A DNA stretch of 64,000 nt from Turneriella sp. (GCA_965279515.1 CBDIID010000003.1:64001-128000); one strand, 5' to 3'; shown: positions 26,771-64,000, numbered from the stretch's first letter. A program made the numbers and translations. Notes: generated from the letters alone by a model not told the origin.

Positions 26771-26844
26771 ATCTTTGCCGCGAAGACCCGAGCACGCGAC
26801 CCAGCCGAAGGCGATCGCCGCGCAGCGCGTAAAATTTGTTGTCT
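26771..26844 (-). repeat. attC-like site 0 (truncated by IS481)
   Basis: Right half only: CCCGAGCACGCG...GCGTAAAATTTGTT. Confidence 0.8.
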
Positions 26845-26888
26845 GAAGTAATTGCGCCTGTGAGCCCGGGCAGGGATGGCCGGGCGAC

Positions 26889-27707
26889 TCAGAAGCCGTA
26901 ACCTATAGATACAGTTAGATGGATGTCATGCACAAAAGAATTTCTACCAATATCAGGCCAAACCTCTGCATTCGAAAATAGATACGTTAATTGGTAATAA
27001 AGATTAAATCTAAACTGCCAGCTATACCAGAAGCGACCTGTCATGCCCACGCCAACACGCGCAGTCGGGCCATGAACAAATACGCTAGTTGGGGCAGTTG
27101 TAATTTGTGTTTGTCCATTTGGTGCCCCAAGCGCCGAGATAAGACTATTATAACCTGCGTATGGATAATAAGAACCTAAATCATACCCAACTTGGCCCAG
27201 AAGATCGAAAGAACTAAAGCCACTCCCGGGATACAAATGTATCTCCTTACCAATCAGTAGTGTATGGAGCGAAACAATCAAGCTATCAGAAATATGTTTA
27301 AAGTTCGAAGTATCGGTACAATACTGGCCGCAATAGCTAGTCTTACCCGCGTTAATGCGTTGGAGTTGGGAACGATACAGATAAGAAAGCAATGTTGACC
27401 ATCGTTCTGATTCGTAAGCTTGATAGTTAATGCCAAATACAAGGGTAAAAATAGTCGCATCAGCTGACTGCTGAGAACCATTAGGTACTGCGGTGGAAAC
27501 CCCCAATGCATTTGTATACTGATTCTCTCGAGTATAAATGCCACCGATTGCTGTGCCGATGCCAAACTCAAGAATAATATTATTCTGAGGAAAGTTAGAT
27601 TTAGCTTCTTGTGAAGTTTTCTCGACTCTTTTCTCAATCGCTTCTATTTTCGCAACGATAAAAGCGGAAAATACGACGATACAGACAAGGAAGAAAAATC
27701 TCACCAT
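26889..27707 (-). CDS. Cassette gene: outer-membrane beta-barrel-like protein
   Basis: 272 aa, signal peptide, ends VSIGYGF. Confidence 0.75.
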   Translation of the reverse strand: MVRFFFLVCIVVFSAFIVAKIEAIEKRVEKTSQEAKSNFPQNNIILEFGIGTAIGGIYTRENQYTNALGVSTAVPNGSQQSADATIFTLVFGINYQAYESERWSTLLSYLYRSQLQRINAGKTSYCGQYCTDTSNFKHISDSLIVSLHTLLIGKEIHLYPGSGFSSFDLLGQVGYDLGSYYPYAGYNSLISALGAPNGQTQITTAPTSVFVHGPTARVGVGMTGRFWYSWQFRFNLYYQLTYLFSNAEVWPDIGRNSFVHDIHLTVSIGYGF

Positions 27708-27764
27708 TAGGTAAATACAAACTGTTTTACAGATTGTAAAGACAAGGAAATTTTCTGGGGTTTG

Positions 27765-28906
27765 TCTTTAGTCCGGAGACATATGTTACAGTGGGGTTGC
27801 TGAAATAAGCGCCCGCCCTTAAGCGGTTTTTACCACAAAACTAAACTTAAGGGAGCGGGCAAATGTACGATTACCAAGAAGCATATCGGCGCATAAAGCG
27901 CAATTTTCATTACTACAAGGGAGATGTCACAGTCCGTATGCGGGCTATGCAATTGTTAAGGGTGCTACGGACGATTACGAAAGGACGATCCGTAGAACTT
28001 GCCTCTGAACTACAGGGTGTCAGGCGGCAGTATTTTTATTTCTGGCTGCGACGGCTGATTGCCACCGACTATGATTTGCAGAGCCTGAAAGGGCGTTCAA
28101 AAAGGCCACACTGCTCACGTAATGCCAAACCAAAATCAGTTATTCTGAAAGTGAAGGAAATTCGTAAGCTCGACGAATCTGGCGGCCATACCATCGCTTT
28201 GATTCTACGACGTGATTTTGGTATCCGCATCGCCGGTTCAACGGTCTGCAACATTCTGAAACGGGAGGGTATTAGCAAGGTTTATCGCTACCAGAAACGC
28301 AATGAGCACACGAAGCGGTATAGCGTAGAAAACCCTTTAAATACGGTGCAAACAGACAGTGCCTGGACGGGGTTTGCAGACAATCACGGTAACAGGGTTT
28401 ATTATTTTCCAGTGATCGATGATTGTTCGCGGGTGGCGACGGTTCATGTCTGCGATTCAAAATCCGGAGATGAAGCGATCAAAGGGATGCAAAGATTCAT
28501 TGAGGCATTCGGCAAACCAGATCAGGTTCAGACCGATAATGGTGTGGAGTTCACCAATCGATTTACTTCACGCAGAAATGCGAAACGGGAGAAAGACGGA
28601 ACATACGCTTTGTTTGAGCAATTTCTGTTCACACAGGCCATACCACATCGGCTAATCAAGGTTCGGACACCTGAGCATAATGGCAAGGTCGAACGGTTCA
28701 ACGGAACCTTAAAAAGGTTTCTTCAACGCAGGGCCAAAGATGGAATGAGCATCCTCCAATTTCAGACGTTGATTGATCAGCACATGGACTGGTACAACCG
28801 CCGCCGGCCACATTGGTCATTGAACGGGTTGACCCCGCACGAGCGGTTCTATGGAGTCCGCTTGGCAAAAATCGCATAAGTGTACGATATCTCCCCGGAC
28901 TCTACA
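27765..28906 (+). mobile_element. IS481-family element with 15-bp target duplication
   Basis: Imperfect 28-bp IRs; ATTTTCTGGGGTTTG at 27750-27764 and 28907-28921. Confidence 0.88.
27863..28879 (+). CDS. IS481-family DDE transposase
   Basis: VIDDCSR, VQTDNGVEF, TPEHNGKVERFN, YNRRRPHWSL. Confidence 0.9.
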   Translation: MYDYQEAYRRIKRNFHYYKGDVTVRMRAMQLLRVLRTITKGRSVELASELQGVRRQYFYFWLRRLIATDYDLQSLKGRSKRPHCSRNAKPKSVILKVKEIRKLDESGGHTIALILRRDFGIRIAGSTVCNILKREGISKVYRYQKRNEHTKRYSVENPLNTVQTDSAWTGFADNHGNRVYYFPVIDDCSRVATVHVCDSKSGDEAIKGMQRFIEAFGKPDQVQTDNGVEFTNRFTSRRNAKREKDGTYALFEQFLFTQAIPHRLIKVRTPEHNGKVERFNGTLKRFLQRRAKDGMSILQFQTLIDQHMDWYNRRRPHWSLNGLTPHERFYGVRLAKIA

Positions 28907-28999
28907 ATTTTCTGGGGTTTGAAACTCAACAAGAAATATTGATCCAGCTATGTTCACCGCCGACACGAGGTCGGCGAATAACAAAGGCGCAATTATTTC

Positions 29000-29213
29000 A
29001 GACAACGTGGAATTTACCTGAAGTTGAGTGACGCTTCGTTCAACTTTGTATTCTGTAAGGCCATTCTGCGTCACTCAATCTGCCCGAAGCGCCTCGCGGC
29101 AAAGCACAAAACAAGCGTCCCGCTTGTGCTTTGTCCGCGATCTTCGGCGCGCAGGGCCGAGCACGCGAGGAGCTGCGGCACCGCAGCGGCGCAGCAGGTA
29201 AATTTTGTTGTCG
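29000..29213 (-). repeat. attC-like site 1
   Basis: AAC GTGG AATTTACCTG...CAGGTAAATT TT GTT. Confidence 0.85.
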
Positions 29214-29276
29214 GCAGTACTTGCGGCATTTCGAGGGCAACCTGCAAACCACGGAGGGTTTGCAGGAGTATTTTAG

Positions 29277-30528
29277 CAGTCTCCTGAAAAACTCTTGATT
29301 TTCTGGATTTTCTGTGCGTATATGAAATATGCGCGGGAATAAACCAGATCAAGATGATCTTTATAGTTACATTTCACTCGAGGAGCGGGTGCCGATGTCG
29401 CATCCGCTGCGTCCCATGAGGCAAATTATCGATGATGTGCTCAAAGCAATGAGCAAGAAATTTGATAAGGTTTATTCGAAGACAGGCAGGCCGAGCATTC
29501 CACCAGAGGTACTCGTTAAGACGCTTTTCCTGCAGGTGCTTTATGGAATCCGCAGCGAGCGTCTGGCTTTAGAGCAACTCGATTTCAACCTGCTCTACCG
29601 ATGGTTCGTCGGCATTACCATGAACCAGAAGATTTGGGACGAAACAGTATTCACCAAGAATCGCGATCGGCTCTTTGCTGGTGAAGCACTCGACGCATTC
29701 TTCGCGGCAGTTATCAAGGAAGCAGATAAACGTGGCTTGCTATCACATGACCATTTCAGCGTAGATGGTACGCTAATCGAATCCTGGGCTTCGCTGAAGA
29801 GCTTCAAGAGCAAAGATCACCCGGACAATAATGGCGACGATGGCGATCCGGGCAACCCCAGTGTCGATTTTCATGGCGAAAAAGACGCAATGACACTCAC
29901 CAATCCACGACGGATACACAGGCAAAACTCTATCGTAAAGGCAAGGGTAAAGAAGCACGCCTGTACTACATGGGCCATTTGCTGATGGAAAATCGCAACG
30001 GGCTCGCGGTGGCTGCGAGTGCAACACAGGCCGGATATCACGAAGAACGAACATCTGCTTTACAAATGTTGAAATCATTGAAGCGAAGCGGAAGAATAAC
30101 CATGGGCGGGGACAAGCATTACGACGATCTGGAATTTGTCCGAGACCTTAAATCGATACAGGTCACCGCGCATGTTGCGCAGAATATCCATTCCCGACGC
30201 CATCATAGTGCGATTGATGAGCGGACAACCCGGCATTCAGGCTACGAAGTGAGTCAGCGGAAACGCAAGCGCATAGAAGAGATATTTGGCTGGGCGAAGG
30301 GCTTCAGTACTTTGCGGCGACCGCATTTTCGCGGACTGAAGCGCATTGGCGCATTTTTCAAGTTCGTCATCAGTGCGTATAACCTTATGAGGATACGAAA
30401 TCTATGCCACGGATAGCACCTCTGCGAATGAAAAGACCGGGCGCCCTGAAAACGCACAACCCACCTGCATTTCCTGAGGCGCTAAGTTCCGAAAATTCCT
30501 GCTCTATCCCCCATTTTTCCGGAGACTG
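29277..30528 (+). mobile_element. IS5-family element
   Basis: IRs CAGTCTCC(T/G)GAAAAA; TTAG target duplication at 29273-29276 and 30529-30532. Confidence 0.9.
29329..30416 (+). pseudogene. IS5-family transposase split by a frameshift near 29880
   Basis: ORFs 29329-29985 and 29970-30416 together align with the intact transposase at 56735-57826. Confidence 0.8.
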
Positions 30529-30951
30529 TTAGATGGTTAAAACCCGTTCATTAAGCACTGATTGCAGCTTCGCGATATTGCGCAATGTCGGATTAGCCTT
30601 CTTAGGGTTCTCAAAATTCTGATAATTCTGGTAAGGAATATTCATTTTGGCTGCCAATTGCTTTTGAGTCAAATTGCGCTTTTTTCTGGCTAATTTAAGC
30701 CAAATAGCAAAGGCTACGTTCTCACTCGGCGCTACCAAATGAATTCCTTTCCCGGCTTTGTGCGATGGCTGAGGAATCTCTTGCTCTCTCAGGTCTATGG
30801 ATTCTAAGTACCCATCCAATGCTTCTTTAGCATGGGTCAAAGCTTCATCCAAGGAATACCCAAAAGTAAGGCAGCCAGGTAAGTCTGGGAATTCAACGCT
30901 AAAAGCGCCTTCTGATTTCGAATGAGTGATTTTCGCCGGATACTTAATCAT
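30529..30951 (-). CDS. hicB: HicB antitoxin with C-terminal HTH
   Basis: VEFPDLPGCLTFG...EAL..AKEAL plus XRE HTH. Confidence 0.9.
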   Translation of the reverse strand: MIKYPAKITHSKSEGAFSVEFPDLPGCLTFGYSLDEALTHAKEALDGYLESIDLREQEIPQPSHKAGKGIHLVAPSENVAFAIWLKLARKKRNLTQKQLAAKMNIPYQNYQNFENPKKANPTLRNIAKLQSVLNERVLTI

Positions 30952-31127
30952 TTTAGCCCACTTTGTTTAAGAATTGCATTCAGAGTTCCTTTCGGGATAT
31001 CTGAATTGCCATGCACCGGCACAACAACGGTTGAGGCGCCTTTCACCATGATGTGATGGGAGCCCTTTATACGATCCAGAACCCAACCGTTTTTTTTGAG
31101 CTTTTTCAATAGCTCCTTGCCTGACAT
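30948..31127 (-). CDS. hicA: HicA toxin (59 aa, absent from the ORF track)
   Basis: Manual translation MSGKELLKKLKKNGWVLDRIKGSHHIMVKG...VPVHGNSDIPKGTLNAILKQSGLK; ATGA overlap with hicB. Confidence 0.9.
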   Translation of the reverse strand: MSGKELLKKLKKNGWVLDRIKGSHHIMVKGASTVVVPVHGNSDIPKGTLNAILKQSGLK

Positions 31128-31226
31128 CCGGAATAATACACATTATTATATGTATCGTCAATCTTTTCCGGGTTTTCCTCTGCGTTCCGAAGCCGCCGAA
31201 ACATGGATGTTTCGGGCAATAATGGC

Positions 31227-31442
31227 ACCTAACTTGGATTTTACGCTGACGTTTTTTGACGCTTGTGTCATTTATTCAGTCTGTAAAGCCGATTTGCGTC
31301 AAAAAATGTGGTCGTAGCGGCTCGCAGTGGCGCGCAAAAGCAAGCGTCCCGCTTGCGCGACATCTGCGATCTTTGCCGCGAAGACCCGAGCACGCGAGGA
31401 GCTACGGCACCGCAGCGGCGCAGCGCGTAAAATTTGTTGGGC
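31227..31442 (-). repeat. attC-like site 2
   Basis: AAC...ATTTTACGC...GCGTAAAAT TT GTT. Confidence 0.85.
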
Positions 31443-31507
31443 GACGTCACGGGCCTAACGGCAAAAATATTTGACACAATGTCTTGTGTGAAGTGTTGTG
31501 TAGCTAT

Positions 31508-31708
31508 ATGGCAACGAACTTAGCTATAGACAACAAGCTATTAAATGAGGCTCTTAAAATAGGTCATTTCAGATCTAAAAAGGACACCGTTAATACGGCT
31601 TTGCGTGAATTTATTCAAAAACGACGCCAAAAGGATATCCTGAGTTTGTTTGGAACTATAGACTTTGATTCTAAGTATGACTATAAAAAAGCTCGTAGTC
31701 GGATATGA
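31508..31708 (+). CDS. vapB: VapB-type antitoxin
   Basis: MATNLAIDNKLLNEAL...KKDTVNTALREFI. Confidence 0.88.
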   Translation: MATNLAIDNKLLNEALKIGHFRSKKDTVNTALREFIQKRRQKDILSLFGTIDFDSKYDYKKARSRI

Positions 31709-32109
31709 ATATTATTCCAGATACCCCCGTCTGGTCGTTAGTTCTGCGAAGAGATATGCCCAACCGTGAAGTGCAAAACCTGTTTGTCCGATTCATTGAA
31801 GAGGGACGTGTCATCTTGCCCGGTGTTGTTAAGCAAGAACTTCTGTCAGGGGTTAGAAACCAAGCCCAATTTGATGCCTTGGCAGAGCAACTGACTCATT
31901 TTCCGGTAATATTAGCTACAGACGCAGATCACATACTTGCGGCTAAATTTTTCAATAAATGTCAAAAGTCAGGTATCCAGGGCAGCCATATCGATTTCTT
32001 AATTCTGGCACTTGCAATAAATAATTCAGCTTCTATTCTTACCTCGGATAAAGACTTCCAACATTATCAAAAGCATGTGCAGTTTGAGCTGCAAATGATT
32101 GGCCCGTGA
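31705..32109 (+). CDS. vapC: VapC PIN-domain toxin
   Basis: DTPVW, QELLSG, IDFLI, TSDKDF. Confidence 0.9.
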   Translation: MNIIPDTPVWSLVLRRDMPNREVQNLFVRFIEEGRVILPGVVKQELLSGVRNQAQFDALAEQLTHFPVILATDADHILAAKFFNKCQKSGIQGSHIDFLILALAINNSASILTSDKDFQHYQKHVQFELQMIGP

Positions 32110-32113
32110 TGTC

Positions 32114-32330
32114 GCCCAACGTGGATTTTACGCTGACGTTTTTTGACGCTTGTGTCATTTATTCAATCTGTAAAGCCGATTTGCGTCAAAAAATGTGGTC
32201 GTAGCGGCTCGCGGCGGCGCGCGAAAACACACCTCCCGGTGTGCGCGTCGTCCGCGATCTTTGCCGCGGAGACCCGAGCACGCGAGGAGCTACGGCACCG
32301 CAGCGGCGCAGCGCGTAAAATTTGTTGTCT
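32114..32330 (-). repeat. attC-like site 3
   Basis: Same repeat family. Confidence 0.85.
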
Positions 32331-32339
32331 GTCGTAAGC

Positions 32340-32639
32340 CTAGGCAATTTTTTTCAGGCGTGGCTCGACTGTATAGCCAAGCGCGGCCAATACCTTCAGC
32401 ATAAAATCAGTGCTAATATCTGATCTGCTTCGATTTAACAATGCAGTAATTCTTGTTCTTGAAGTTCCAACTCGTTTAGCCAAGGTTTCATGCGTCAGCT
32501 TGGACTTACTAAATAGGCCAGCGATATCGGAGTTCAACTTTGAACGAAATACCGCGTCGGCGGCTTCATATTCAGTCAAACCAATAGCCTCAAAAAGCTC
32601 TTTTGGATTCTTCGCTGTGATTACATTTAATTTAGCCAT
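32340..32639 (-). CDS. XRE-HTH antitoxin (HigA-like)
   Basis: HTH LTHETLAKRVGTSRTRITALLN; downstream of a RelE-like toxin. Confidence 0.85.
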   Translation of the reverse strand: MAKLNVITAKNPKELFEAIGLTEYEAADAVFRSKLNSDIAGLFSKSKLTHETLAKRVGTSRTRITALLNRSRSDISTDFMLKVLAALGYTVEPRLKKIA

Positions 32640-32967
32640 TTGTAGCCTCCAAAATTTCTCTCAATCTCTTCTTGCCGATATCTATTTCGCGTTTCAATGT
32701 CTTCTCTGATTTCTTGATAAAAGTGTGAAACACTAAGACTTTGCCAGCTACTTTGAGGTAGTAAAAAGCCCTGTATTGATTCTGCGAATCCTTAACCCTC
32801 AATTCGGAGACACCTGGAGCGACAGAAGGCATTGGTCGCGAATCTGGCATACTGACGCTCTCTCCCAGTTGTAAGTCGAGTATCAAATCCCCCAGTTTTG
32901 CCTTGATCTCCTTGGAGTAGGACTTAATCTCGGACAATGCTGCCGGATGGAAGTCAGCATCTTTCAC
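32632..32967 (-). CDS. RelE/HigB-like (Gp49-type) toxin
   Basis: SRPMPSVAPGVSELRV...YRAFY...HTFIKKSEKT. Confidence 0.88.
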   Translation of the reverse strand: MKDADFHPAALSEIKSYSKEIKAKLGDLILDLQLGESVSMPDSRPMPSVAPGVSELRVKDSQNQYRAFYYLKVAGKVLVFHTFIKKSEKTLKREIDIGKKRLREILEATNG

Positions 32968-33024
32968 TGCTTAATGTATTGAAAACAATACATGGCGTCA
33001 AGAAAAACTCGCGTGGCTTATGAC

Positions 33025-33247
33025 AGACAACGTGGAATTTACCCGAAGTCGATAGTGCGTCGCACAATAAATGCAGTCTTCACTCGAAAGCCACGACTTG
33101 ATGCACTATCGATTTGCCGAAGGTCGCCTCGTTGCGCCCGACCAAACAAACGTCCCGTTTGTCGGGCGTCAACGACTCCTGGCGACCGAGGCCGAGCACG
33201 CCCGCCAACGGAGTGCGGGCGCGCGCAGCGGGTAAATTTTGTTGTGC
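33025..33247 (-). repeat. attC-like site 4
   Basis: Same repeat family, TCGATAGTGC arm variant. Confidence 0.85.
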
Positions 33248-33294
33248 GAAGGTTTTGCGCCATACGGTAGATGCTTAGCAAAAAATTCCATGGC

Positions 33295-33747
33295 CTAAAT
33301 TAGAATCTTAGTTTCAATGAAATCTAGTCTTTTGCTTAACAAATCTGCCATTTGACGGGTCGGGCGGGCATCCACCGGTATCAAGTCTTCGATTGATCTC
33401 CCTTCTCGCACGGCGTCTACCCAGCGACCCATTTCATACACATAACCAGAAAGAGCCGCCGCTGGCGTTTCGTTATCAATCGCTGATATATAAGCAGATG
33501 GCAAATCACCCACGACTACCCAAAGCCAATTATCGGCCTTGCCATTTGGCAATATCTCAAAGAGGAAAACGGCCACTATACCACCAACTCCCAGGCCAAA
33601 ATGCGCATCTTTGATTTTCTTACACCAAGAGTGGCTTCTCAGATAGTCACTAGCCTCGAGATACATCTTCTTAAGCATTTTAGTGTCTGCGGCGTCTTCC
33701 CCGCGCATCTTTTTGATCGGCACAATATTCTTAAATTCAGCTTTCAT
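33295..33747 (-). CDS. Cassette gene: hypothetical (DUF4826-like WVVVGDLP motif)
   Basis: ORF filling the cassette; start placed at MKAEFK. Confidence 0.7.
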   Translation of the reverse strand: MKAEFKNIVPIKKMRGEDAADTKMLKKMYLEASDYLRSHSWCKKIKDAHFGLGVGGIVAVFLFEILPNGKADNWLWVVVGDLPSAYISAIDNETPAAALSGYVYEMGRWVDAVREGRSIEDLIPVDARPTRQMADLLSKRLDFIETKILI

Positions 33748-33815
33748 ATTTATTGCAAAAGTTCCATCAAACTCCAGCAAAATACCCTTCCACGATGAAA
33801 AATAAATGCGCAGGT

Positions 33816-35147: not shown

Positions 35148-35158
35148 CCGCCAATGTC

Positions 35159-47836: not shown

Positions 47837-47839
47837 CCC

Positions 47840-55513: not shown

Positions 55514-55570
55514 ACGTACATTTTAATAAAAATACTTACGTACGACAAGTTTTTCTTGCGTGACTATTTC

Positions 55571-55786
55571 AGCTAACGTGGAATTTACCTGAGGTTGAGT
55601 GACGCTTCGTTCAACTTTGTATTTTGTAAAGCCATTTTGCGTCACTCAATCTGCCCGGAGCGCCTCGCGGCAAAGCACAAAACAAGCGTCCCGCTTGTGC
55701 TTTGTCCGCGATCTTCTGGCGCGTAGGGCCGAGCACGCGAGGAGCCACGGCACCGCAGCGAGCGCAGCAGGTAAATTTTGTTGTGC
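55571..55786 (-). repeat. attC-like site 27
   Basis: Same repeat family. Confidence 0.85.
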
Positions 55787-57868: not shown

Positions 57869-57970
57869 CTAGATGCCATAATGTTAGGCTTAAAAATAAT
57901 AAATTTCTGAAAATTGAAATTTTATTCTTCTGGTTAAATTTCATTGAAGTGCTCTGAGTTATGACATTTC

Positions 57971-58186
57971 AGACAACGCGGAATTTACCTGACGTTTGGT
58001 GACGCTTGTGTCATTATTTCAACCTGTAAAGCCTATTTGCGTCACCAAATGTGCCCGAAGCGCCTGCCCGAGCCCGGCAAAACCAAGCTCCCGCTTGGCC
58101 GGGCGCAGGGCATCTTTGGCGCGTAGGGCCGAGCACCCGAGGAGCCACGGCACCGCAGGGAGCGCAGCAGGTAAATTTTGTTGTGC
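57971..58186 (-). repeat. attC-like site 28
   Basis: Same repeat family. Confidence 0.85.
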
Positions 58187-58205
58187 GCAGTAAAGTCACT
58201 ATCGG

Positions 58206-58850
58206 TTAGCTTTGCTTGATTGTTACTCGAAGCTGACCCAGAAGTTTTCGAATCAGTTCAATGTAGTAGCCAATCAGATCCTTTTGCACCAATAGCTGAC
58301 CGTGCTTAACCAATAGATATTTTGAATTATTAAGCGTCTTAGGTAATTTGTCTATTTTTTCAACAGTTGTTTCGCCATTGTCGTGTACAATGATTTGTCG
58401 GATTCTTTGCATTGCGTCAATCTCAAACCACAGGGCTCCGGTGTCTGGGAATGGCAATTTCAAGACTTTCTTAAAATAAACTTTTGCTCGATCTAGCGGT
58501 TTTCCGTTCAGGTCGCCCATGCTCAATGCTAGGTTATGTTTTTGTTGGGCGGTTTTACAGTAATCACTCAAACTTTTCTCTAAAAAACTGCTCAGTGAAA
58601 CGATCATCGAATTGCGAACCATTTCAGGAAAAGTCTCTGATAAATCCGTAAAACGCTCGGAATGAAAATCGTAGTGACTATCGAGAGCTTCTTCATCTTT
58701 TATCTTCGCCGCTTGTTTATCAACCCACAGCCGGAAGCTGGAAAGCGAATCTACTAGCATTGATTCAGTTAAATCATGCAACTCAGAATACTTCTGCAAT
58801 TCGTAATCGGAAAAATCTAATGGAACCAAAAATAAGTCATCTAGTGTCAT
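58206..58850 (-). CDS. Cassette gene: HEPN-like protein
   Basis: Helical protein with S...LE motif and C-terminal RxxxxH (RQIIVH). Confidence 0.65.
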   Translation of the reverse strand: MTLDDLFLVPLDFSDYELQKYSELHDLTESMLVDSLSSFRLWVDKQAAKIKDEEALDSHYDFHSERFTDLSETFPEMVRNSMIVSLSSFLEKSLSDYCKTAQQKHNLALSMGDLNGKPLDRAKVYFKKVLKLPFPDTGALWFEIDAMQRIRQIIVHDNGETTVEKIDKLPKTLNNSKYLLVKHGQLLVQKDLIGYYIELIRKLLGQLRVTIKQS

Positions 58851-58875
58851 ATTATTATTCCTGTGACTTTATTGC

Positions 58876-59100
58876 GCACAACGTGGAATTTACCTGAGGT
58901 CGATAGTGCATCGCACAATAAATGCAGTCTTTATTCGAAAGCCGCGTATTGATGCACTATCGATCTGCCGTAGGTCGCCTCGTTGCGCCGCACCGAATGC
59001 ACGTCCCGTGCGTGCGGCGTCAACGACTCTTAGGCGACCGGAGGCCGAGGACGCGAGCCAACGAAGTGCTCGCGCCCGCAGCAGGTAAATTTTGTTGTGC
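58876..59100 (-). repeat. attC-like site 29
   Basis: Same repeat family. Confidence 0.85.
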
Positions 59101-59143
59101 GTAGTTACGGTGGACAAAGTAGCAAGGGATTTAGCTTTGTATT

Positions 59144-59740
59144 ATGCGAGTTTCTAGTCTGCTTTCTCTGGCATTAATGGTTTCTGGATGTATTTCTGAA
59201 AGGAGTTTCATATCACCAGAAGGGAAGCTTGAATTTGAAATAGTTGGCAGGTTCTTTAACGATGAAAGGGCGAAATCTTGGCAGGGCCCTGTGCAGAGAG
59301 TCCAAGTAGAAATCAGCAAAAAAGACGGCAAGTACACAGGTACCATAGATCGGAAAATTGTCCACCTAAGGGATGATAAGATTTTTATGGTCCATTATAA
59401 GGCTGAATTGTACGGGGCTCGGCATTCAGCGCATGAAATAAATTTCAGAGATCGCATAATTTTATCGTGTGGCTATTATCTAAAGGATGGGATCAAGAAG
59501 CCTATTCTGGATTTGGTGCTTGAGGATTTCAAAGGTCCAGACTGCAGATCTAAAGAGAATCTCGAGCAATATCAGGCTAGAGAGGAAAAAGAGGAATTTG
59601 GCTCAATATACTTCAACATAAAAAACAATTCAGAGATCTGGTGGAGTCCGAAGGAGGACATGAGGTCAATAAAGTTAGTTCGGCAAATGGACCCATTCAA
59701 AACAGAATCTGAATTAGCGGGAAAAATTTTCCCACCGTAA
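59144..59740 (+). CDS. Cassette gene: putative lipoprotein
   Basis: VSGC lipobox. Confidence 0.78.
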   Translation: MRVSSLLSLALMVSGCISERSFISPEGKLEFEIVGRFFNDERAKSWQGPVQRVQVEISKKDGKYTGTIDRKIVHLRDDKIFMVHYKAELYGARHSAHEINFRDRIILSCGYYLKDGIKKPILDLVLEDFKGPDCRSKENLEQYQAREEKEEFGSIYFNIKNNSEIWWSPKEDMRSIKLVRQMDPFKTESELAGKIFPP

Positions 59741-59744
59741 TTAC

Positions 59745-59959
59745 GCACAACGTGGATTTTACGCTGACGTTTTTTGACGCTCGTGTCATTTATTCAATCT
59801 GTAAAGCCGATTCGCGTCAAAAAATGTGGTCGTAGCGGCTCGCGGCGAGGCGCGAAAACACACCTCCCGGTGTGCGCGTCGTCCGCGATCTTTGCCGCGG
59901 AGACCCGAGCACGCGACCCAACGGAGTGGTCGCGGCGCAGCGCGTAAAATTTGTTGGCC
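59745..59959 (-). repeat. attC-like site 30
   Basis: Same repeat family. Confidence 0.85.
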
Positions 59960-59993
59960 GCCGTAACGGGTTGGGTTAAAGCATGCTAGGACA

Positions 59994-60359
59994 TTATCGG
60001 AGATAATACAAATACACGGCGTACCCAATCATTCCCGCCAATTCGCTTTTCTTAAGTTTTGAGAATTTTTCTTTGAAATGTCTAATTAAAGCATTATGAT
60101 CAAAATCAGCCATTTCGGCATATTTTGAATCTGACGCTTTTCGATAGAATTTAGATTTGTGATATTTTCTGATTTCAGCGTATAAAGCCTTCTGAAAACT
60201 ACGGATATAGGTTAACCGTTCAAGGTCAATTTTACCGAACTTGTAATATGCTAGGCTCCGTTTGATTTTACTCTCTGTATTTGATTCCGTCCCATCAAAT
60301 TCCCAGATCAATTTGCTAAAGTAGATAAAATCGGCAGAAGGTGGGGTCGATTTCGGCAT
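59994..60359 (-). CDS. Cassette gene: hypothetical protein
   Basis: 121 aa ORF occupying the cassette. Confidence 0.7.
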   Translation of the reverse strand: MPKSTPPSADFIYFSKLIWEFDGTESNTESKIKRSLAYYKFGKIDLERLTYIRSFQKALYAEIRKYHKSKFYRKASDSKYAEMADFDHNALIRHFKEKFSKLKKSELAGMIGYAVYLYYLR

Positions 60360-60455
60360 GTTAAACCACTCTAGTAAATCAGTCTGTCGCTCAGCTTAAA
60401 TGCTCTTTCTTGTAAAATAAAATTATTTGAAGTGAGTTTTTCATCCCGTTATGGC

Positions 60456-60670
60456 GGCCAACGTGGAATTTACCTGAGGTTGAGTGACGCTTCGTTCAAC
60501 TTTGTGTTCTGTAAAGTCATTTTGCGTCACTCAATCTGCCCGGAGCGCCTCGCGGCAAAGCACAAAACAAGCGTCCCGCTTGTGCTTTGTCCGCGATCTT
60601 CGGCGCGCAGGGCCGAGCACGCGAGGAGCTACGGCACCGCAGCGAGCGCAGCAGGTAAATTTTGTTGTCT
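60456..60670 (-). repeat. attC-like site 31
   Basis: Same repeat family. Confidence 0.85.
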
Positions 60671-60684
60671 GAAGTGGTCGCCAT

Positions 60685-61074
60685 TCAGTGGCCTTCTCGA
60701 TCTGATAACTCGATAATGGGAGCCTGGGCGGAAACTAAGTCGAATACTAAACCACCTTCTAAATGAATATGGTGTAGTGGCATTGGGGGAGCTTCTCCGC
60801 CAATAAAACCGTACTCTAGTCCCCTAGATCGCATAAAAGCCATGCTCTCGTGAATAGTGTATGTAATATCTGCCAAAAACCAAGCATCAGGGTCTTCAAT
60901 CGTAAGTGAAGTCTTGAATAATAGCACCGCTTTACAAATAAGCCGGTACTTTTGGTCATCTTCAGGTGCATGAATTTCTATTGAAGCCGTCTGATTGCTT
61001 GCTGCAAAGGCGACGTCTAAAATATCCAGCATTGGGTCTTTTTCCCATTTCTGTAGTAAATCAAGTGTATTCAT
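60685..61074 (-). CDS. Cassette gene: hypothetical protein
   Basis: 129 aa acidic ORF occupying the cassette. Confidence 0.72.
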   Translation of the reverse strand: MNTLDLLQKWEKDPMLDILDVAFAASNQTASIEIHAPEDDQKYRLICKAVLLFKTSLTIEDPDAWFLADITYTIHESMAFMRSRGLEYGFIGGEAPPMPLHHIHLEGGLVFDLVSAQAPIIELSDREGH

Positions 61075-61136
61075 AAGTGTTTAAATGCTTAGCAGAGGTT
61101 CATTGTATTTGTGTGAAATAATCTGGCGACCATTTC

Positions 61137-61355
61137 AGACAACGTGGAAAATACCCGAATTGCGCCCCCGCGGGTGTAAAGTGCAAATAATCACGGCCTT
61201 ATGCGACTTTCGTGGGAGCGCATTTGCCCGGAGCGCCTCGCGAGCCTGCCAAAACACACCTCCCGGTGTGGCAGGCGCAGCGATCTTTGGCGCGTAGGGC
61301 CGAGGACGCGACCCAACGTAGTGGTCGCGCCCGCAGCGGGTATTTTTTGTTGTGC
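61137..61355 (-). repeat. attC-like site 32
   Basis: Same repeat family. Confidence 0.85.
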
Positions 61356-61461
61356 GATGAATCTGCAAGGCATTACAAATGCCCCCGGCCAAGCATGGAG
61401 GCTTGGCCGGAGATTACTACAAATATTTGACCTTGTGTTTCAATTGATATACATTGTCTGC

Positions 61462-61722
61462 ATGGCCAAAGACGCAATTATAAATGCCCGGGTTGAAAGC
61501 CGACTTAAGACTAAGGTCGATCAGATTTTCAATGTTCTGGGATTGTCTCAAACCGAAGCCATAACGCTTTTTTATAAACAAGTTGAGCTTAACCAAGGGT
61601 TACCCTTTGACGTCAAAGTACCAAATAAGCTCACTAAAAAAACTCTTAAGGATTCGAGAATCGGGAAGAATATCAAGAAGTTTAAGTCAAAAACTGACCT
61701 CTACGCTGACTTGGGTATTTAG
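61462..61722 (+). CDS. dinJ: RelB/DinJ antitoxin
   Basis: INARVE..LK...LGLSQTEAI.LF...GLPFDVKVPN..T. Confidence 0.9.
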   Translation: MAKDAIINARVESRLKTKVDQIFNVLGLSQTEAITLFYKQVELNQGLPFDVKVPNKLTKKTLKDSRIGKNIKKFKSKTDLYADLGI

Positions 61723-61991
61723 TGCTCGATATCGAGCGTAGCAATCAATTCAAGAAAGATCTAAAGCGATCTCTCAAGAGAGGCAAGGATCCAGAAAAAT
61801 TGAAGGTTCTTATTGAACTGTTAGTTCAACAGAAAGCTTTACCCGCTAAGAATAGAGATCACAAACTGGCGGGTGACTACATCGATTGCAGAGAATGCCA
61901 TATCGAGCCAGATTGGCTTCTGATCTATACAGCAAATGAGACGGTGCTGCGCCTAGAGCGGACAGGCTCACATGCAGATTTATTTGAATAG
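61722..61991 (+). CDS. yafQ: YafQ toxin
   Basis: DHKLAGDY..CRECHIEPDWLLIY...RTGSHADLF. Confidence 0.93.
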   Translation: MLDIERSNQFKKDLKRSLKRGKDPEKLKVLIELLVQQKALPAKNRDHKLAGDYIDCRECHIEPDWLLIYTANETVLRLERTGSHADLFE

Positions 61992-62046
61992 CGATTTATA
62001 GCGCTGACAGGATGTCAGCGAGGCTCAGGCGACTTGCAGATTTTTC

Positions 62047-62262
62047 GCACAACGTGGAATTTACCTGACGATTGGTGACACTTGTGTCATTAATTTAATC
62101 AGGAAAGCCAAATCGTGTCACCAATTGTGCCCGGAGCGCCTCGCGGCAAAGCACAAAACAAGCGTCCCGCTTGTGCTTTGTCCGCGATCTTCTGGCGCGT
62201 AGGGCCGAGCACGCGAGGAGCCACGGCACCGCAGCGAGCGCAGCAGGTAAATTTTGTTGTGC
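62047..62262 (-). repeat. attC-like site 33
   Basis: Same repeat family. Confidence 0.85.
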
Positions 62263-62267
62263 GATGG

Positions 62268-63188
62268 TCAATATGGCTTCGGTTTAACTGGCATGCGCGC
62301 CTTCATCATTTTGATGATAGAGGCTTTTGTTTCTTGCTTCGGAATATAGCCAAGAATAGCTGATATCGCGGTATCATTGTACTTGGTACCTTCATAGACA
62401 CTGATTATCTGGATTTTGATATTTTGGGTTTTTTCTGGAAATATTATGGAGGAAAACTTTATCTCATCTTTAAAATCATGTAGTATCTCAAATTTGTCCG
62501 CAACTATTTTGATCTGTTTTAAACGGTTGTTTTGAGCAAAAAGGTACGGTCTATATATGTCTACATATCCGTTCAAAATTGTCATTCCGTCAGTTTTTCG
62601 GGTAAAAGTAACATTAATTTCCTCGGTTGAGCCAAAATCGGCTTCACCTTCTACCCAAGGCGGTACTAATTCGTCATAGTTAAAATCATGACAGGAGCAC
62701 CCTCGATAGAATTTTCGTTTCAACCAATCGGATTTGTAATCAATCTTCCGGCCGAAGATTGATTCAGAATAGAAAGATTTTGTGGAGATACTCTTAAGAT
62801 TAATATCAGATGGCTTAAACACGACGGAATTATTAGACCGAACACCGTAGTTACCCACATAATGTTCAGACATGCTCTCTTTACTCGGTAAATAGAATGC
62901 CTGATTAAAGGAATCACCTGGGATAAGGATGTATTTTCGATCACGAAGCTTAAACTGAATGAAGCTATTTTCTGTCTCAAAAACTATTTTCTTTGTAACA
63001 TCATCAAAAGCAGACTTCAATGAATCTTGCTCGTATTGAAATACTTTACGGCCATCAATTATCAAGCCGCCATTATCCATTAAGGGTAAAGGTATTACAT
63101 CCTCTGATTTTGGATAATCTATGCCACCGAGCTGGCCAAGGGTTATCAGTGATAGAAGTAAGGCGCGCATATAAGTTTTATTTGCCAT
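62268..63188 (-). CDS. Cassette gene: exported protein with NADase-type glycan-binding/discoidin-like domain
   Basis: PWVEG...ILNGY...NNRLKQIKI...SVYEGTKYNDTAIS. Confidence 0.75.
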   Translation of the reverse strand: MANKTYMRALLLSLITLGQLGGIDYPKSEDVIPLPLMDNGGLIIDGRKVFQYEQDSLKSAFDDVTKKIVFETENSFIQFKLRDRKYILIPGDSFNQAFYLPSKESMSEHYVGNYGVRSNNSVVFKPSDINLKSISTKSFYSESIFGRKIDYKSDWLKRKFYRGCSCHDFNYDELVPPWVEGEADFGSTEEINVTFTRKTDGMTILNGYVDIYRPYLFAQNNRLKQIKIVADKFEILHDFKDEIKFSSIIFPEKTQNIKIQIISVYEGTKYNDTAISAILGYIPKQETKASIIKMMKARMPVKPKPY

Positions 63189-63198
63189 ATTGACTTTC

Positions 63199-63421
63199 GC
63201 ACAACGTGGAATTTACACGAGGTCGATGGTGCGTTGCACAAAAACAGCAGGCTTATTTAGAAAACCGCGTATTAAGCACCATCGATCTGCCGTAGACCGC
63301 TCGTTGCGCCTGACCAAACAAACGTCCCGTTTGTCAGGCGTCAACGATCTTTGCGGTCGGAGGCCGAGCACGCGAGGAGCCACGGCACCGCAGCGAGCGC
63401 AGCGTGTAAATTTTGTTGTGT
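63199..63421 (-). repeat. attC-like site 34
   Basis: Same repeat family, close to site 6. Confidence 0.85.
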
Positions 63422-63445
63422 GCCGTTTTGCATCGTTGCCATAAT

Positions 63446-63961
63446 CTATGGAACGATTCTGATTTTTAGTGTCAGAAACGTCTTATCTCTGTATATATGT
63501 AGTTCCGCTTCGGAGCCAGGTAGCTCATTTCGGTTATTCGCCAATTCTTGCAATTTTGATGAAATCTTGCGAAATTCTTTTTCCCAACAAGGATTCGGCG
63601 TTTGATCAAAGTCAGTCGGACAGGATCTGACTAAGTTGAAATCTTGCACCTGGCAGATTATATCACCATCCTTGAATAGGCGGCCACGGAATAGTTGAGT
63701 CCTTGCAATCTTATACCCATCGATTCGGCCATCCAGCGCCCGTGGGCCAAATTGACTAGAAGGCGGTTCTTTGTGATGAACATACACCAAATCAAAATAC
63801 TCATTCACTTCAGTTAAATTTAGGTCGGCATATATCGTTTTTCCTTGCTGCCAATTCCAACATGATTCTGGTGAAGTATTTGCTGGCTTCTCTGTGCGAG
63901 CTTTACTGCACAACAGTAGCAATGTAATCAGTAAGAGTGCATTGCTTGGGTAAAATTTCAT
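63446..63961 (-). CDS. Cassette gene: putative lipoprotein
   Basis: Hydrophobic leader ending LLLC. Confidence 0.7.
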   Translation of the reverse strand: MKFYPSNALLLITLLLLCSKARTEKPANTSPESCWNWQQGKTIYADLNLTEVNEYFDLVYVHHKEPPSSQFGPRALDGRIDGYKIARTQLFRGRLFKDGDIICQVQDFNLVRSCPTDFDQTPNPCWEKEFRKISSKLQELANNRNELPGSEAELHIYRDKTFLTLKIRIVP

Positions 63962-63974
63962 CTTGCAAAATGGC

Positions 63975-64000
63975 ACACAACGTTGGAATTTCGCGAGGTG
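63975..64000 (-). repeat. attC-like site 35 (cut by window edge)
   Basis: ACACAAC GTTGG AATTT; cassette end matches GTTGTGTGCC at 63415. Confidence 0.7.

What the first reader, a model, noticed from the sequence alone, without database searches (positions are those of the whole stretch)
26771..64000. Large superintegron-like array with oversized, branched, geometrically atypical attC-like sites
Seen: 36 related palindromes of about 194-223 bp, each starting xxxxAAC-GTGG and ending TT-GTTxxxx, separating 35 cassettes over 37 kb and continuing off the edge. The closing stem covaries (AATTTACCTG/CAGGTAAATT, ATTTTACGC/GCGTAAAAT, AAAATACCCG/CGGGTATTTT, ATTTTACAAG/CTTGTAAAAT). The spacer next to the core is asymmetric (4-5 nt versus 2 nt). 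The interior is multi-armed around a conserved CCGAG(C/G)AC motif. Established: typical attC sites are single hairpins of roughly 60-140 bp, and IntegronFinder's default attC size cap is 200 bp, so this array could be missed. Inference: a divergent spirochaete integron class or a related tyrosine-recombinase cassette system.
Basis: partly seen in the sequence, partly recalled or inferred. Interest (0 to 1): 0.85.

Follow-up and report, generated by a model that had tools for sequence, protein, structure and literature searches.

The report
Integron-like cassette array, giant sites
This stretch is the outer 37 kb of a very large store of swappable gene cassettes built like a bacterial integron, but its recombination sites are about 215 bases long and branched, and the recombinase that likely serves it lacks the segment thought to define integron integrases.

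Summary
Window 26771-64000 carries 34 complete sites and one truncated site of one family, 194-225 nt long, all on the + strand.

The sites behave as integron-type attC sites:
- They have AAC/GTT ends and a covarying closing stem.
- The 7 nt after each GTT are the reverse complement of the 7 nt before the next AAC in 20 of 34 neighbouring pairs. This holds in 0 of 34 same-site pairs.
- Duplicated cassettes begin exactly at an AAC.

The array runs on to C3:170.7 kb with 76 sites. A second array has 53 sites.

No canonical IntI is found in the genome. In 5 of 5 relatives examined, a roughly 366-aa tyrosine recombinase sits at the GTT end of the array. In 4 of 4 read, an attI-like junction lies beside it. 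This recombinase lacks about 41 residues where IntI4 has its extra domain. In this genome its gene lies 2.8 Mb away from the array.

I read this as a new variant of the integron. Recombination itself is untested. This scan reached the same reading earlier on other windows of this genome.

The parts
25395..26770 (-). IS481-family insertion sequence (transposase ORF 25395-26675; right end about 26770). It cuts the first site and forms the array's left edge.
   Evidence: Pfam rve, rve_3, HTH_32 and LZ_Tnp_IS481. A 98% identical copy lies at 33847-35052 (D15). Eight copies are in the genome, seven of them in or at the arrays.
26771..28999 (+). Unit 0: truncated site 26771-26844 (3' 74 nt only) plus its body. 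The body holds a 272-aa ORF (-) with no family and a rve transposase at 27863-28879 (+).
29000..31226 (+). Unit 1: site 29000-29213. Body: an IS5-like transposase in two frames (29329-30416, +), a HicB-like antitoxin at 30529-30951 (-), and a 64-aa ORF (-).
   Evidence: R1 228.9 bits; Pfam.
31227..32113 (+). Unit 2: site 31227-31442. Body: VapB 31484-31708 and PIN/VapC 31705-32109 (+).
   Evidence: R1 213.1 bits; Pfam.
32114..33024 (+). Unit 3: site 32114-32330. Body: an HTH antitoxin at 32340-32639 and a Gp49/HigB-like toxin at 32632-32967 (-).
   Evidence: R1 216.1 bits; Pfam.
33025..35159 (+). Unit 4: site 33025-33247. Body: a 174-aa ORF (-) with no family, and a second IS481 copy at 33847-35052 (-).
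   Evidence: R1 181 bits.
35160..36035 (+). Unit 5: site 35160-35375, whose start reads AAT rather than AAC. Body: ParE at 35426-35722 and a 71-aa partner at 35707-35922 (-).
   Evidence: R1 223.2 bits.
36036..37381 (+). Unit 6: site 36036-36258. Body: an ankyrin-repeat protein at 36333-37280 (+).
   Evidence: R1 199.7 bits; Pfam.
37382..40134 (+). Unit 7: site 37382-37605. Body: an IS5-like transposase at 37619-39235 (+) and a 156-aa ORF at 39545-40015 (-).
   Evidence: R1 161.7 bits; Pfam.
40135..41178 (+). Unit 8: site 40135-40349. Body: a 227-aa ORF at 40438-41121 (+) with no family.
   Evidence: R1 221.8 bits.
41179..42116 (+). Unit 9: site 41179-41399. Body: a PemK/MazF toxin at 41445-41798 (-).
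   Evidence: R1 164.4 bits.
42117..42977 (+). Unit 10: site 42117-42333. Body: a 190-aa ORF (+) with no family.
   Evidence: R1 214 bits.
42978..43880 (+). Unit 11: site 42978-43193. Body: a 220-aa ORF (-) with no family.
   Evidence: R1 230.2 bits.
43881..44807 (+). Unit 12: site 43881-44098. Body: a 179-aa ORF at 44190-44729 (+). The whole unit recurs identically at C3:155,7xx-156,639 among other neighbours, and the identity starts exactly at the AAC.
   Evidence: R1 213 bits.
44808..45342 (+). Unit 13: site 44808-45023. The 319-nt body holds no ORF of 60 aa that lies wholly inside it. A 96% copy lies at C3:136,407.
   Evidence: R1 162.1 bits.
45343..46086 (+). Unit 14: site 45343-45557. Body: a 146-aa ORF (-) with no family.
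   Evidence: R1 231.9 bits.
46087..46904 (+). Unit 15: site 46087-46302. Body: a 177-aa ORF (+) with no family.
   Evidence: R1 211.4 bits.
46905..47301 (+). Unit 16: site 46905-47121 plus a 180-nt mini-cassette with no convincing ORF.
   Evidence: R1 166.2 bits.
47302..48257 (+). Unit 17: site 47302-47521. Body: a DUF5615/PIN-like protein at 47840-48208 (+).
   Evidence: R1 169.1 bits.
48258..49039 (+). Unit 18: site 48258-48473. Body: an RraB-family protein at 48510-49022 (-).
   Evidence: R1 230.7 bits.
49040..49430 (+). Unit 19: site 49040-49256 plus a 174-nt mini-cassette.
   Evidence: R1 169.4 bits.
49431..50347 (+). Unit 20: site 49431-49646. Body: a 221-aa ORF (-) with no family.
   Evidence: R1 228.2 bits.
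50348..51165 (+). Unit 21: site 50348-50563. Body: a 175-aa ORF (-) with no family.
   Evidence: R1 228.6 bits.
51166..51560 (+). Unit 22: site 51166-51380 plus a 180-nt mini-cassette.
   Evidence: R1 156.1 bits.
51561..52634 (+). Unit 23: site 51561-51783. Body: a 68-aa ORF and a PIN protein at 52063-52503 (-).
   Evidence: R1 184.4 bits.
52635..53674 (+). Unit 24: site 52635-52828, the shortest at 194 nt. Body: PIN_3 at 52884-53282 and a MazE/AbrB antitoxin at 53279-53548 (-).
   Evidence: R1 174.3 bits.
53675..54591 (+). Unit 25: site 53675-53897. Body: a 212-aa ORF (-) with no family.
   Evidence: R1 183.8 bits.
54592..55570 (+). Unit 26: site 54592-54805. Body: PIN_3 at 54821-55252 and DUF6364 at 55253-55513 (-).
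   Evidence: R1 227.6 bits.
55571..57970 (+). Unit 27: site 55571-55786. Body: a 223-aa ORF (-) and an IS5-like transposase at 56735-57826 (-).
   Evidence: R1 232.6 bits.
57971..58875 (+). Unit 28: site 57971-58186. Body: a 214-aa ORF (-) with no family.
   Evidence: R1 204.3 bits.
58876..59744 (+). Unit 29: site 58876-59100, the longest at 225 nt. Body: a 198-aa ORF (+) with no family.
   Evidence: R1 177.3 bits.
59745..60455 (+). Unit 30: site 59745-59959. Body: a 121-aa ORF (-) with no family.
   Evidence: R1 200.2 bits.
60456..61136 (+). Unit 31: site 60456-60670, the best match and the one folded. Body: a 129-aa ORF (-) with no family.
   Evidence: R1 234.3 bits.
61137..62046 (+). Unit 32: site 61137-61355. 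Body: a RelB antitoxin (within ORF 61201-61722) and a YafQ toxin at 61722-61991 (+). A 97% copy of the unit lies in array B at C3:3,754,1xx-3,755,09x, followed there by a site of another subfamily.
   Evidence: R1 181.3 bits.
62047..63198 (+). Unit 33: site 62047-62262. Body: a 306-aa protein with an NADase_transloc (F5/8 type C-like) domain at 62268-63188 (-).
   Evidence: R1 228.8 bits.
63199..64000 (+). Unit 34: site 63199-63421. Body: an ORF of at least 176 aa (-) that runs to the window's edge. The array continues beyond.
   Evidence: R1 205 bits.

Best explanation
This is the recombinase-distal 37 kb of a 79-kb array of mobile gene cassettes laid out like a sedentary chromosomal integron, whose roughly 215-nt branched sites are likely recombined as folded single strands by a tyrosine recombinase that lacks the integron-specific I2 region.

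Shown:
- Each mobile unit is one site plus the DNA to its right in window coordinates, and it ends in X'AA just before the next site's C.
- The 7 nt outside AAC and GTT pair only in the excised, circular form of a cassette.
- The array ends on the right at an attI-like junction, AAC|GTCTATT.
- In related genomes the recombinase gene starts about 170 bp to 1.5 kb beyond that junction and points away from the array.

It follows that the window's - strand is the 'top' strand in integron convention. Cassette genes on that strand read away from attI, as they do in 22 of 31 cassettes that hold an ORF.

Inferred:
- The recombinase binds the AAC/GTT box and the 10-bp closing stem of the folded strand.
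- It cuts at AA|C on the window's + strand and exchanges one strand with attI or with another site.
- Replication resolves the product, as in integrons.
- The long branched interior, the invariant CCGAG(C/G)AC motif or the recombinase's extra N-terminal 95 residues would take over the role that I2 and the extrahelical bases have in integrons.

In this genome the only gene of this recombinase type lies 2.8 Mb away, so it would act in trans on two arrays that kept attI-like ends.
For: Site family and fold:
- There are 34 full sites and 1 cut site in the window.
- 26 of 41 consensus pairs have compensatory changes.
- The fold z-scores are -7.8 and -6.0.

Cassette signature:
- The 7 nt after GTT of site i equal the reverse complement of the 7 nt before AAC of site i+1 in 20 of 34 neighbouring pairs, and at least 6 of 8 positions match in 26 of 34.
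- The same test is met in 0 of 34 same-site pairs and in 4.3% of 1156 non-neighbour pairs.
- Thirteen different heptamers take part.

Unit boundaries:
- The identical copy of unit 12 starts exactly at AAC.
- The 97% copy of unit 32 in the other array ends at the next AAC.

Arrayed, not dispersed:
- Array A has 76 sites, array B has 53, and 19 mostly degraded copies lie elsewhere. All arrayed sites are on one strand.

Recombinase position:
- In G021, G030, G027, G025 and G028 (5 of 5 searched), a tyrosine recombinase lies 1.3-3.2 kb past the last site, on the sites' strand.
- The junction X'AAC followed by non-site DNA is seen in 4 of 4 read, and three of them share GTYTATTCCCTG.
- Both G000 arrays end in AAC|GTCTATTA.

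The recombinase itself:
- The G000 homologue (C3:2926093-2927193, 366 aa) is 39-54% identical to those of G021, G030, G025 and G027.
- The catalytic residues R, K, H, R, H and Y are invariant in 15 sequences.
- Against IntI4 (2a3v), 23 residues stand where the chain has 64.
- TIGR02249 scores 161 bits against a cut-off of 265.
- The nearest solved folds are IntI4 and then XerA.

No canonical IntI:
- The best TIGR02249 match in G000 is 93 bits.
- The same model finds IntI above its cut-off in 29 of 301 genomes of the phylum.

Beyond the genus:
- In another family of the order (G013), a 43%-identical homologue is followed by three repeats of about 250 nt with AAC/GTT ends and the same flank complementarity.
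Against: - No recombination, cassette circle or strand preference was observed. The public runs are held only as contigs that break at the sites.
- In G000 no recombinase lies next to either array.
- The one degraded site near the recombinase gene has the opposite orientation to that in relatives.
- Nine of 31 cassettes are coded on the other strand.
- 8 of 34 neighbouring pairs fail the flank test. Four of these 8 bodies hold an IS transposase.
- Published work holds that I2 is the basis of attC processing (PMC7790495, passages). A recombinase without it might therefore act on double-stranded DNA, or not on these sites at all.
- No conserved bulged base is predicted in the closing stem.
- The recombinase family is also present in 10 of 20 genomes of the order that have no site of this family.
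Confidence: 0.8

Rival explanations
1. These are ordinary integron leftovers, or CALINs. A canonical IntI with I2 built the arrays and was later lost, or acts from outside the genome. The neighbouring Xer-like recombinase in relatives is a bystander.
For: - G000's arrays have no adjacent recombinase.
- Large CALINs of up to 114 sites, and IS-mediated splitting of integrons, are in print (PMC4889954, passages).
- Canonical IntI occurs in the phylum.
Against: - No IntI or IntI pseudogene appears in a six-frame search of G000.
- None was found in the 46 genomes sampled from families f1 and f8.
- The same non-IntI recombinase lies at the attI-like junction in 5 of 5 relatives searched.
- A homologue lies next to a different long-site array in another family.
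Confidence: 0.07
2. The cassettes are moved by the host's chromosome-dimer resolvases XerC/XerD, or by another host enzyme, in the manner of Xer-exploiting elements. The array-end recombinase has another role.
For: - G000 has only four tyrosine recombinases, two of them XerC/XerD-like.
- Hairpin substrates for Xer are known from CTX phage (PMC7790495, passage).
Against: - The array-end gene sits at one fixed place beside the junction in relatives.
- It forms its own clade apart from the genome's XerC/XerD (SH-aLRT 95, quick tree).
- I did not look for a dif-like core in the sites.
Confidence: 0.07
3. The repeats are structured intergenic repeats, such as terminators or REP-like or MITE-like elements, spread by duplication and not by site-specific recombination.
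For: - The units are strong hairpins placed after genes.
- Many of them are near-identical.
Against: - Flank complementarity links the two ends of each cassette and not the two ends of each repeat.
- Duplicated blocks start and stop at AAC.
- All 129 arrayed copies lie on one strand in two arrays.
- A defined end junction lies beside a recombinase.
Confidence: 0.02

Closest known systems
Sedentary chromosomal integrons, such as the Vibrio cholerae superintegron with VCR sites and IntIA/IntI4 (PDB 2a3v)
   Same: - A tyrosine recombinase gene points away from an attI-like junction.
- A long one-strand array of cassettes follows, each with a folded site at its far end.
- The sites carry the conserved triplets AAC and GTT.
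- The outer part of each end box belongs to the next cassette.
- The cargo is rich in toxin-antitoxin pairs and orphan genes.
- The nearest solved fold of the recombinase is IntI4.
   Different: - The sites are 194-225 nt long and branched, leaving about 170 nt between the closing stems. The published variable-region range is 20-100 nt (PMC4889954, passage).
- The spacers are 2 and 4 nt.
- The recombinase lacks about 41 residues at the I2 region and fails TIGR02249.
- The recombinase carries an extra N-terminal stretch of about 95 residues.
CALIN (clusters of attC sites lacking an integron integrase; Cury et al. 2016, PMC4889954)
   Same: In G000, both arrays stand without a recombinase gene nearby and are flanked or interrupted by IS elements. 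This is the published route to CALINs (passages).
   Different: - The sites do not fit the published attC size range.
- The published survey lists no element at all for the one named genome of the probable genus (supplement).
- The arrays keep attI-like ends.
XerA-type recombinases (NCBIfam NF040815, named 'site-specific tyrosine recombinase/integron integrase'; PDB 5hxy, 4a8e)
   Same: - This is the best-scoring family for the recombinase: 196-222 bits against a cut-off of 220.
- There is no I2 region.
- The folds are close.
- Proteins of about 270 aa from candidate-phyla bacteria that carry this name in their sources are 40-45% identical over the core.
   Different: - XerA acts on a short double-stranded dif site (recalled).
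- The proteins here carry an N-terminal extension, sit beside cassette arrays, and form a clade of their own (SH-aLRT 95).
Treponema denticola chromosomal integron
   Same: It is a cassette array in a spirochaete. Canonical IntI genes are found in 29 of 301 genomes sampled from the phylum.
   Different: Those genomes encode IntI above the family cut-off, with the full model matched (positions 1-315). This genome and the 46 sampled genomes of families f1 and f8 do not.

Membership tests
Integron (functional platform: intI + attI + attC cassettes) | An integrase of the IntI subfamily, with the additional domain (I2) between the beta-hairpin and patch III | tested here: not met
   - TIGR02249 scores 161-192 bits against a cut-off of 265 for four array-end recombinases.
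- The best six-frame match in G000 is 93 bits.
- Against IntI4, 23 residues stand where the chain has 64.
- The model shows only short strands at residues 272-292 and no helix.
Integron (functional platform: intI + attI + attC cassettes) | An attI insertion site beside the integrase gene, with the newest cassette next to it | tested here: met
   - The junction X'AAC followed by non-site DNA lies upstream of the recombinase gene in 4 of 4 relatives read. The gap is about 170 bp in G021, G030 and G025; in G027 a toxin-antitoxin pair is inserted, making it about 0.9 kb.
- In G000 the junction is present at both arrays, but the gene is absent there.
Integron (functional platform: intI + attI + attC cassettes) | attC sites with paired R''/R' and L''/L' boxes, AAC/GTT triplets and a folded single strand | tested here: met
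   - AAC and GTT are invariant or nearly so.
- The closing stem covaries.
- The fold z-scores are -7.8 and -6.0.
Integron (functional platform: intI + attI + attC cassettes) | attC size and form within the described range (variable terminal structure of 20-100 nt) | tested here: not met
   The sites are 194-225 nt long, with about 170 nt inside the closing stem, and are predicted to have three arms. The published range is from PMC4889954 (passage).
Integron (functional platform: intI + attI + attC cassettes) | A cassette boundary inside the conserved triplet, so that the outer half of each end box belongs to the neighbouring cassette | tested here: met
   20 of 34 neighbouring pairs are complementary, against 0 of 34 same-site pairs. 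Duplicated units start and end at AAC.
Integron (functional platform: intI + attI + attC cassettes) | Extrahelical bases that mark the recombined strand | tested here: inconclusive
   - The asymmetric internal loop (4-5 against 2 nt) is conserved.
- No conserved bulged base is predicted in the 10-bp closing stem.
- The + strand folds better in 33 of 34 sites, with 1 tie.
Integron (functional platform: intI + attI + attC cassettes) | Excision and integration of cassettes by the integrase | not testable with these tools
   The runs that hold this DNA are kept only as contigs, which break at the sites.
CALIN | Two or more attC sites with no integrase gene nearby | tested here: met
   The nearest tyrosine recombinase gene lies about 1.2 Mb from array A and 0.8 Mb from array B. 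The label applies only if these sites are accepted as attC.
NF040815 XerA-type recombinase | A score above the curated cut-off of 220 bits | tested here: inconclusive
   The G000 protein scores 196, G027's 197.4 and G025's 209.8, all below the cut-off. G030's scores 222.3, above it.

The most novel reading that the evidence does not exclude
This is a second lineage of integrons. A tyrosine recombinase that never had, or has lost, the I2 helix captures and shuffles genes through giant branched single-stranded sites. The three-armed interior, the invariant CCGAG(C/G)AC motif or the enzyme's own N-terminal domain supply the strand and structure recognition that I2 and extrahelical bases supply in classical integrons. 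The system spans at least two families of one spirochaete order. It fills up to about 205 kb of a genome and is invisible to current integron finders.
Probability: 0.4. Interest if true: 0.9.

Novelty: new variant of a known kind. Interest (0 to 1): 0.8.

Why it matters
- The field holds that acquiring I2 is what turned a Xer-like enzyme into an integrase able to use folded single-stranded sites (PMC7790495, passages). Here a natural system has every architectural mark of an integron, but its enzyme lacks I2 and its sites are twice the usual length. That makes the question 'is I2 necessary?' directly testable.
- Surveys that require the IntI-specific domain and cap site length probably undercount gene-capture platforms. 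The one named genome of the probable genus is listed with no element in the published survey.
- The arrays are large reservoirs of unknown genes. 129 arrayed sites cover about 150 kb, or 3% of this genome.
- I found no paper that names both Turneriella and integrons. A search for integron papers that mention Xer and the additional domain listed nothing of this kind among its 20 titles and abstracts.

Tried and rejected
- **Rfam.** At gathering thresholds there were 0 matches in the window. I saw no attC family there to compare with.
- **Scan of genome contigs with the recombinase alignment.** The two peptide patterns were too general. The scan stopped after 1 of 64 parts and returned only hits of 41% identity or less from many phyla. 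It gave no information on arrays or on the organism's name.
- **Public runs.**
  - No RNA holder is listed.
  - The four runs that hold the stretch (X1-X4, one study) and the metagenome runs are all kept as contigs.
  - In X1 and X3 the contigs stop at the sites.
  - In the groundwater runs X5 and X6, many 'joints' link one site to another with only 20-35 letters on the short side. These may simply be related sites in other organisms, so I draw no conclusion from them on circles or order variation.
  - Two cassette bodies are covered at 98.6-100% identity in those runs: 47543-48126 in X5 and 51731-52659 in X6.
- **The other non-Xer recombinase of G000 (301 aa, C3:2781225-2782130).** It lies between an AIR-synthase-like gene and xdhC. 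No site lies beside it and it has no array-end homologues, so I dropped it as a candidate.
- **The 122-nt repeat family D8.** In this window it is simply the left arm of one site subfamily (AAAATACCCG...), not a separate element.
- **IS481 insertion points.** I first thought the IS481 copies might target a fixed position of the sites. The two insertion points in the window differ: one is inside a site, the other 12 nt before one.
- **IntegronFinder.** It could not be run here, and its 200-nt default cap is recalled. Neither term look-up, one in each IntegronFinder paper, returned a passage stating it.
- **Tree.** It is a quick search with SH-aLRT support only. One row (IntI_L117, a 648-aa ORF) is probably mis-extracted and sits on a very long branch, but I left it in. 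The position of the array-end clade relative to IntI and to the XerA-like proteins is unresolved.

Full report
**Where the window lies.** The window is G000:C3:64001-128000 of a 4.90-Mb genome in three contigs. The nearest relatives of its array-end recombinase carry the source names 'Turneriella sp.', 'Spirochaetes bacterium' and 'Leptospiraceae bacterium'. Earlier notes of this scan also call the genome Turneriella. I use that name as probable, not as shown.

**The observation.** A repeat search finds many families of direct repeats from 26.8 kb to the window's end. I delimited each copy by its AAC start and GTT end and aligned 34 full copies.
- Including both 7-nt end boxes, the copies are 194-225 nt long.
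- Covariance model R1, built from them, finds those 34 copies at 156-234 bits and a 3' fragment at 26771-26844. All are on the + strand, and the rest of the 64 kb holds nothing better than E 0.6.
- Every other detail holds: the AAC-GTGG start, the TT-GTT end, the four covarying variants of the closing stem, the 4-5 nt against 2 nt spacers, and the motif CCGAG(C/G)AC.
- RNAalifold predicts 41 consensus pairs, of which 26 keep pairing through changes on both sides.
- The best site, folded as single-stranded DNA, gives a closing stem and three arms. The + strand reaches -61.4 kcal/mol (z -7.8) and the - strand -57.6 kcal/mol (z -6.0). None of 200 shuffles folds as well.
- The + strand is the more stable in 33 of 34 sites, with one tie.

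**These are cassette boundaries, not just repeats.**
- The 7 nt that follow GTT of one site are the exact reverse complement of the 7 nt that precede AAC of the next site in 20 of 34 neighbouring pairs. At least 6 of 8 positions match in 26 of 34.
- The two flanks of one and the same site never match (0 of 34). Non-neighbouring pairs match in 4.3% of 1156 comparisons.
- Thirteen different heptamers take part, so the pairing is kept through compensatory change.
- This is the signature of integron cassettes. The crossover lies in the conserved triplet, so the outer half of each end box travels with the neighbouring cassette, and the two halves pair only in the excised circle.
- Of the eight pairs that fail, four have an IS transposase in the body between them.

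**The mobile unit and its polarity.** Most cassette bodies are unique in the genome (27 of 34), but a few recur.
- The unit at 43881-44807 has an identical copy at C3:155.7-156.6 kb among other neighbours. Identity begins exactly at the AAC of the site to the left and runs through the site and the gene until an IS481 copy interrupts it.
- The RelB/YafQ unit at 61137-62046 has a 97% copy in the second array. Identity there ends just after the AAC of the next site, which belongs to a different subfamily.
- The unit is therefore the site plus the DNA to its right in window coordinates.

**Extent in the genome.** A profile search of the whole genome gives 148 matches.
- 76 lie in array A (C3:90,771-169,919). 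The window holds the first 35 of these.
- 53 lie in array B (C3:3,734,379-3,804,591).
- All 129 arrayed copies are on the + strand.
- 19 mostly degraded copies lie in small outposts.
- Array A's left edge is an IS481-family element that cuts a site. Array B's left edge abuts a remnant of the same element's end.
- Both arrays end on the right with a last cassette that closes in X'AAC followed by GTCTATTA..., which is not a site.

**The recombinase.**
- The genome has four tyrosine recombinase genes and no match to the integron-integrase model above 93 bits, against a cut-off of 265.
- The same model finds integrases above its cut-off in 29 of 301 genomes sampled from the phylum. It finds none in the 46 sampled from families f1 and f8.
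- R1 finds the site family in 14 of 34 genomes of the order (G000 included), in 11 of 13 other genomes of the genus, and in no family outside f1.
- I picked five relatives that carry the sites: G021, G030, G027, G025 and G028. In all five, a tyrosine recombinase gene lies 1.3-3.2 kb beyond the GTT end of the array, on the sites' strand, pointing away. G028's gene is only a fragment.
- In G021 the sites span about 205 kb.
- In the four relatives whose sequence I read, the last cassette ends in X'AAC followed by non-site DNA. Three of them share GTYTATTCCCTG there. This is an attI-like junction, and the layout is that of an integron seen from the other strand.
- On that reading the window's - strand is the conventional top strand. 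Accordingly, 22 of 31 ORF-bearing cassettes are coded on it.

**Features of the G000 recombinase.**
- G000's homologue (C3:2926093-2927193, 366 aa) is 39-54% identical to the array-end proteins of G021, G030, G025 and G027.
- It has no array beside it, only one degraded and oppositely oriented site 1.9 kb away.
- Fifteen members of the family keep the catalytic Arg, Lys, His, Arg, His and Tyr.
- The best NCBIfam model is the XerA type, NF040815. Scores are 196-222 bits against a cut-off of 220, and one of the four proteins passes. The integron-integrase model gives 161-192 bits against 265.
- Against the solved integron integrase IntI4, residues 101-271 align to chain residues 12-181 and residues 295-366 to chain residues 246-317. 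So 23 residues stand where IntI4 has 64, at the place of the integron-specific domain.
- An AlphaFold model (mean pLDDT 79.5) shows only short strands there. It also shows a separate three-helix N-terminal part, residues 1-59.
- The nearest solved folds are IntI4 and then XerA.
- In a quick tree the family is one clade (SH-aLRT 95). It stands apart from six canonical integrases of the phylum (SH-aLRT 100) and from the genome's XerC/XerD. The order of branching among the family, the integrases and the XerA-like proteins is unresolved.

**Beyond the genus.**
- Homologues at E <= 1e-30 occur in 22 of 34 genomes of the order.
- They are present in 12 of the 14 genomes that have the sites. The two without one are each 83% complete and carry a single site.
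- They are also present in 10 of the 20 genomes that lack this site family. Several of these lie within 0.5-4 kb of a contig end.
- In G013, from another family, the gene is followed by a first cassette coded away from it. Three repeats of about 250 nt come next, with AAC and GTT ends and the same flank complementarity. The pairing of this recombinase type with long sites is therefore not confined to one genus.

**Cargo.**
- The window's cassettes hold many type II toxin-antitoxin genes: VapBC, HicB, a HigBA-like pair, ParE, MazF, PIN/MazE pairs and RelB/YafQ.
- They also hold an ankyrin-repeat protein, an RraB-family protein and a protein with an NADase_transloc domain.
- About 20 ORFs match no Pfam family.
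- There are five insertion-sequence copies.

**Comparison with what is known.**
- The architecture matches sedentary chromosomal integrons feature by feature.
- Two defining features fail. The integrase lacks the additional domain, and the sites lie well outside the described size range. The variable terminal structure is given as 20-100 nt in PMC4889954 (passage).
- The literature treats I2 as the basis of attC processing (PMC7790495, abstract and passages).
- I found no paper holding both 'Turneriella' and 'integron'. A search on integrons with Xer and the additional domain listed nothing of this kind among its 20 titles and abstracts.
- The supplement of the IntegronFinder survey lists Turneriella parva DSM 21527 with no CALIN, In0 or complete integron. 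I did not test whether that genome holds the arrays.
- Earlier follow-ups in this scan reached the same reading on other windows of this genome. I re-derived each point here from my own calls.

**What remains open.** Nothing here shows recombination, which strand is used, or that this enzyme is the catalyst. Those steps are inferred from position, co-occurrence and the sequence signatures.

Noticed in passing
window 47122-47301, 49257-49430, 51381-51560: A 160-180-nt 'mini-cassette' with no convincing ORF recurs at least 13 times in the two arrays at 91-100% identity. Wherever I checked, it follows a site of the AAAATACCCG subfamily. Its - strand carries a GC-rich hairpin followed by a T run.
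   Followed up: partly
window 25395-26770 and 33847-35150; C3:136.7, 143.1, 156.6, 3740.5, 3748.9 and 3765.0 kb: An IS481-family element has eight copies in the genome, seven of them inside or at the edge of the two arrays. Array A's left edge abuts a full copy, and array B's left edge abuts a remnant of the element's end. This suggests that IS-mediated rearrangement split or moved the arrays away from the recombinase gene.
   Followed up: partly
G000 C3:170,690 and C3:3,805,400 (outside the window): Both arrays keep an attI-like end (AAC|GTCTATTA...) but are followed directly by housekeeping genes: an MlaD/ABC operon after A and a 452-aa ORF that I did not scan after B. The recombinase gene expected there is absent. 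The flank beyond the recombinase in G021 and G030 matches G000 C3:3.8-7.8 kb, and the flank in G027 matches C3:2.85 Mb. The platform therefore sits at different chromosomal places in different species.
   Followed up: partly
window 22217-25474 (+): Just left of the array lies a 1085-aa protein with HYDIN/ASH-type Ig-like and Kelch repeats. Its last codons overlap the IS481 transposase ORF as listed.
   Followed up: no
window 29329-30416, 37619-39235, 56735-57826: Three IS5-like (DUF772/DDE_Tnp_1) transposase genes lie inside cassettes. The first is split into two frames. The third has four near-identical copies (99.9-100% over about 1,250 nt) elsewhere in the chromosome.
   Followed up: partly
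L017 (G027:C1) about 5740-6300, between the attI-like junction and the recombinase gene: By reading the sequence, a small pair of genes that look like an AbrB/MazE-like antitoxin and a PemK/MazF-like toxin lies between the junction and the recombinase gene in one relative. I did not scan them against a family library.
   Followed up: no
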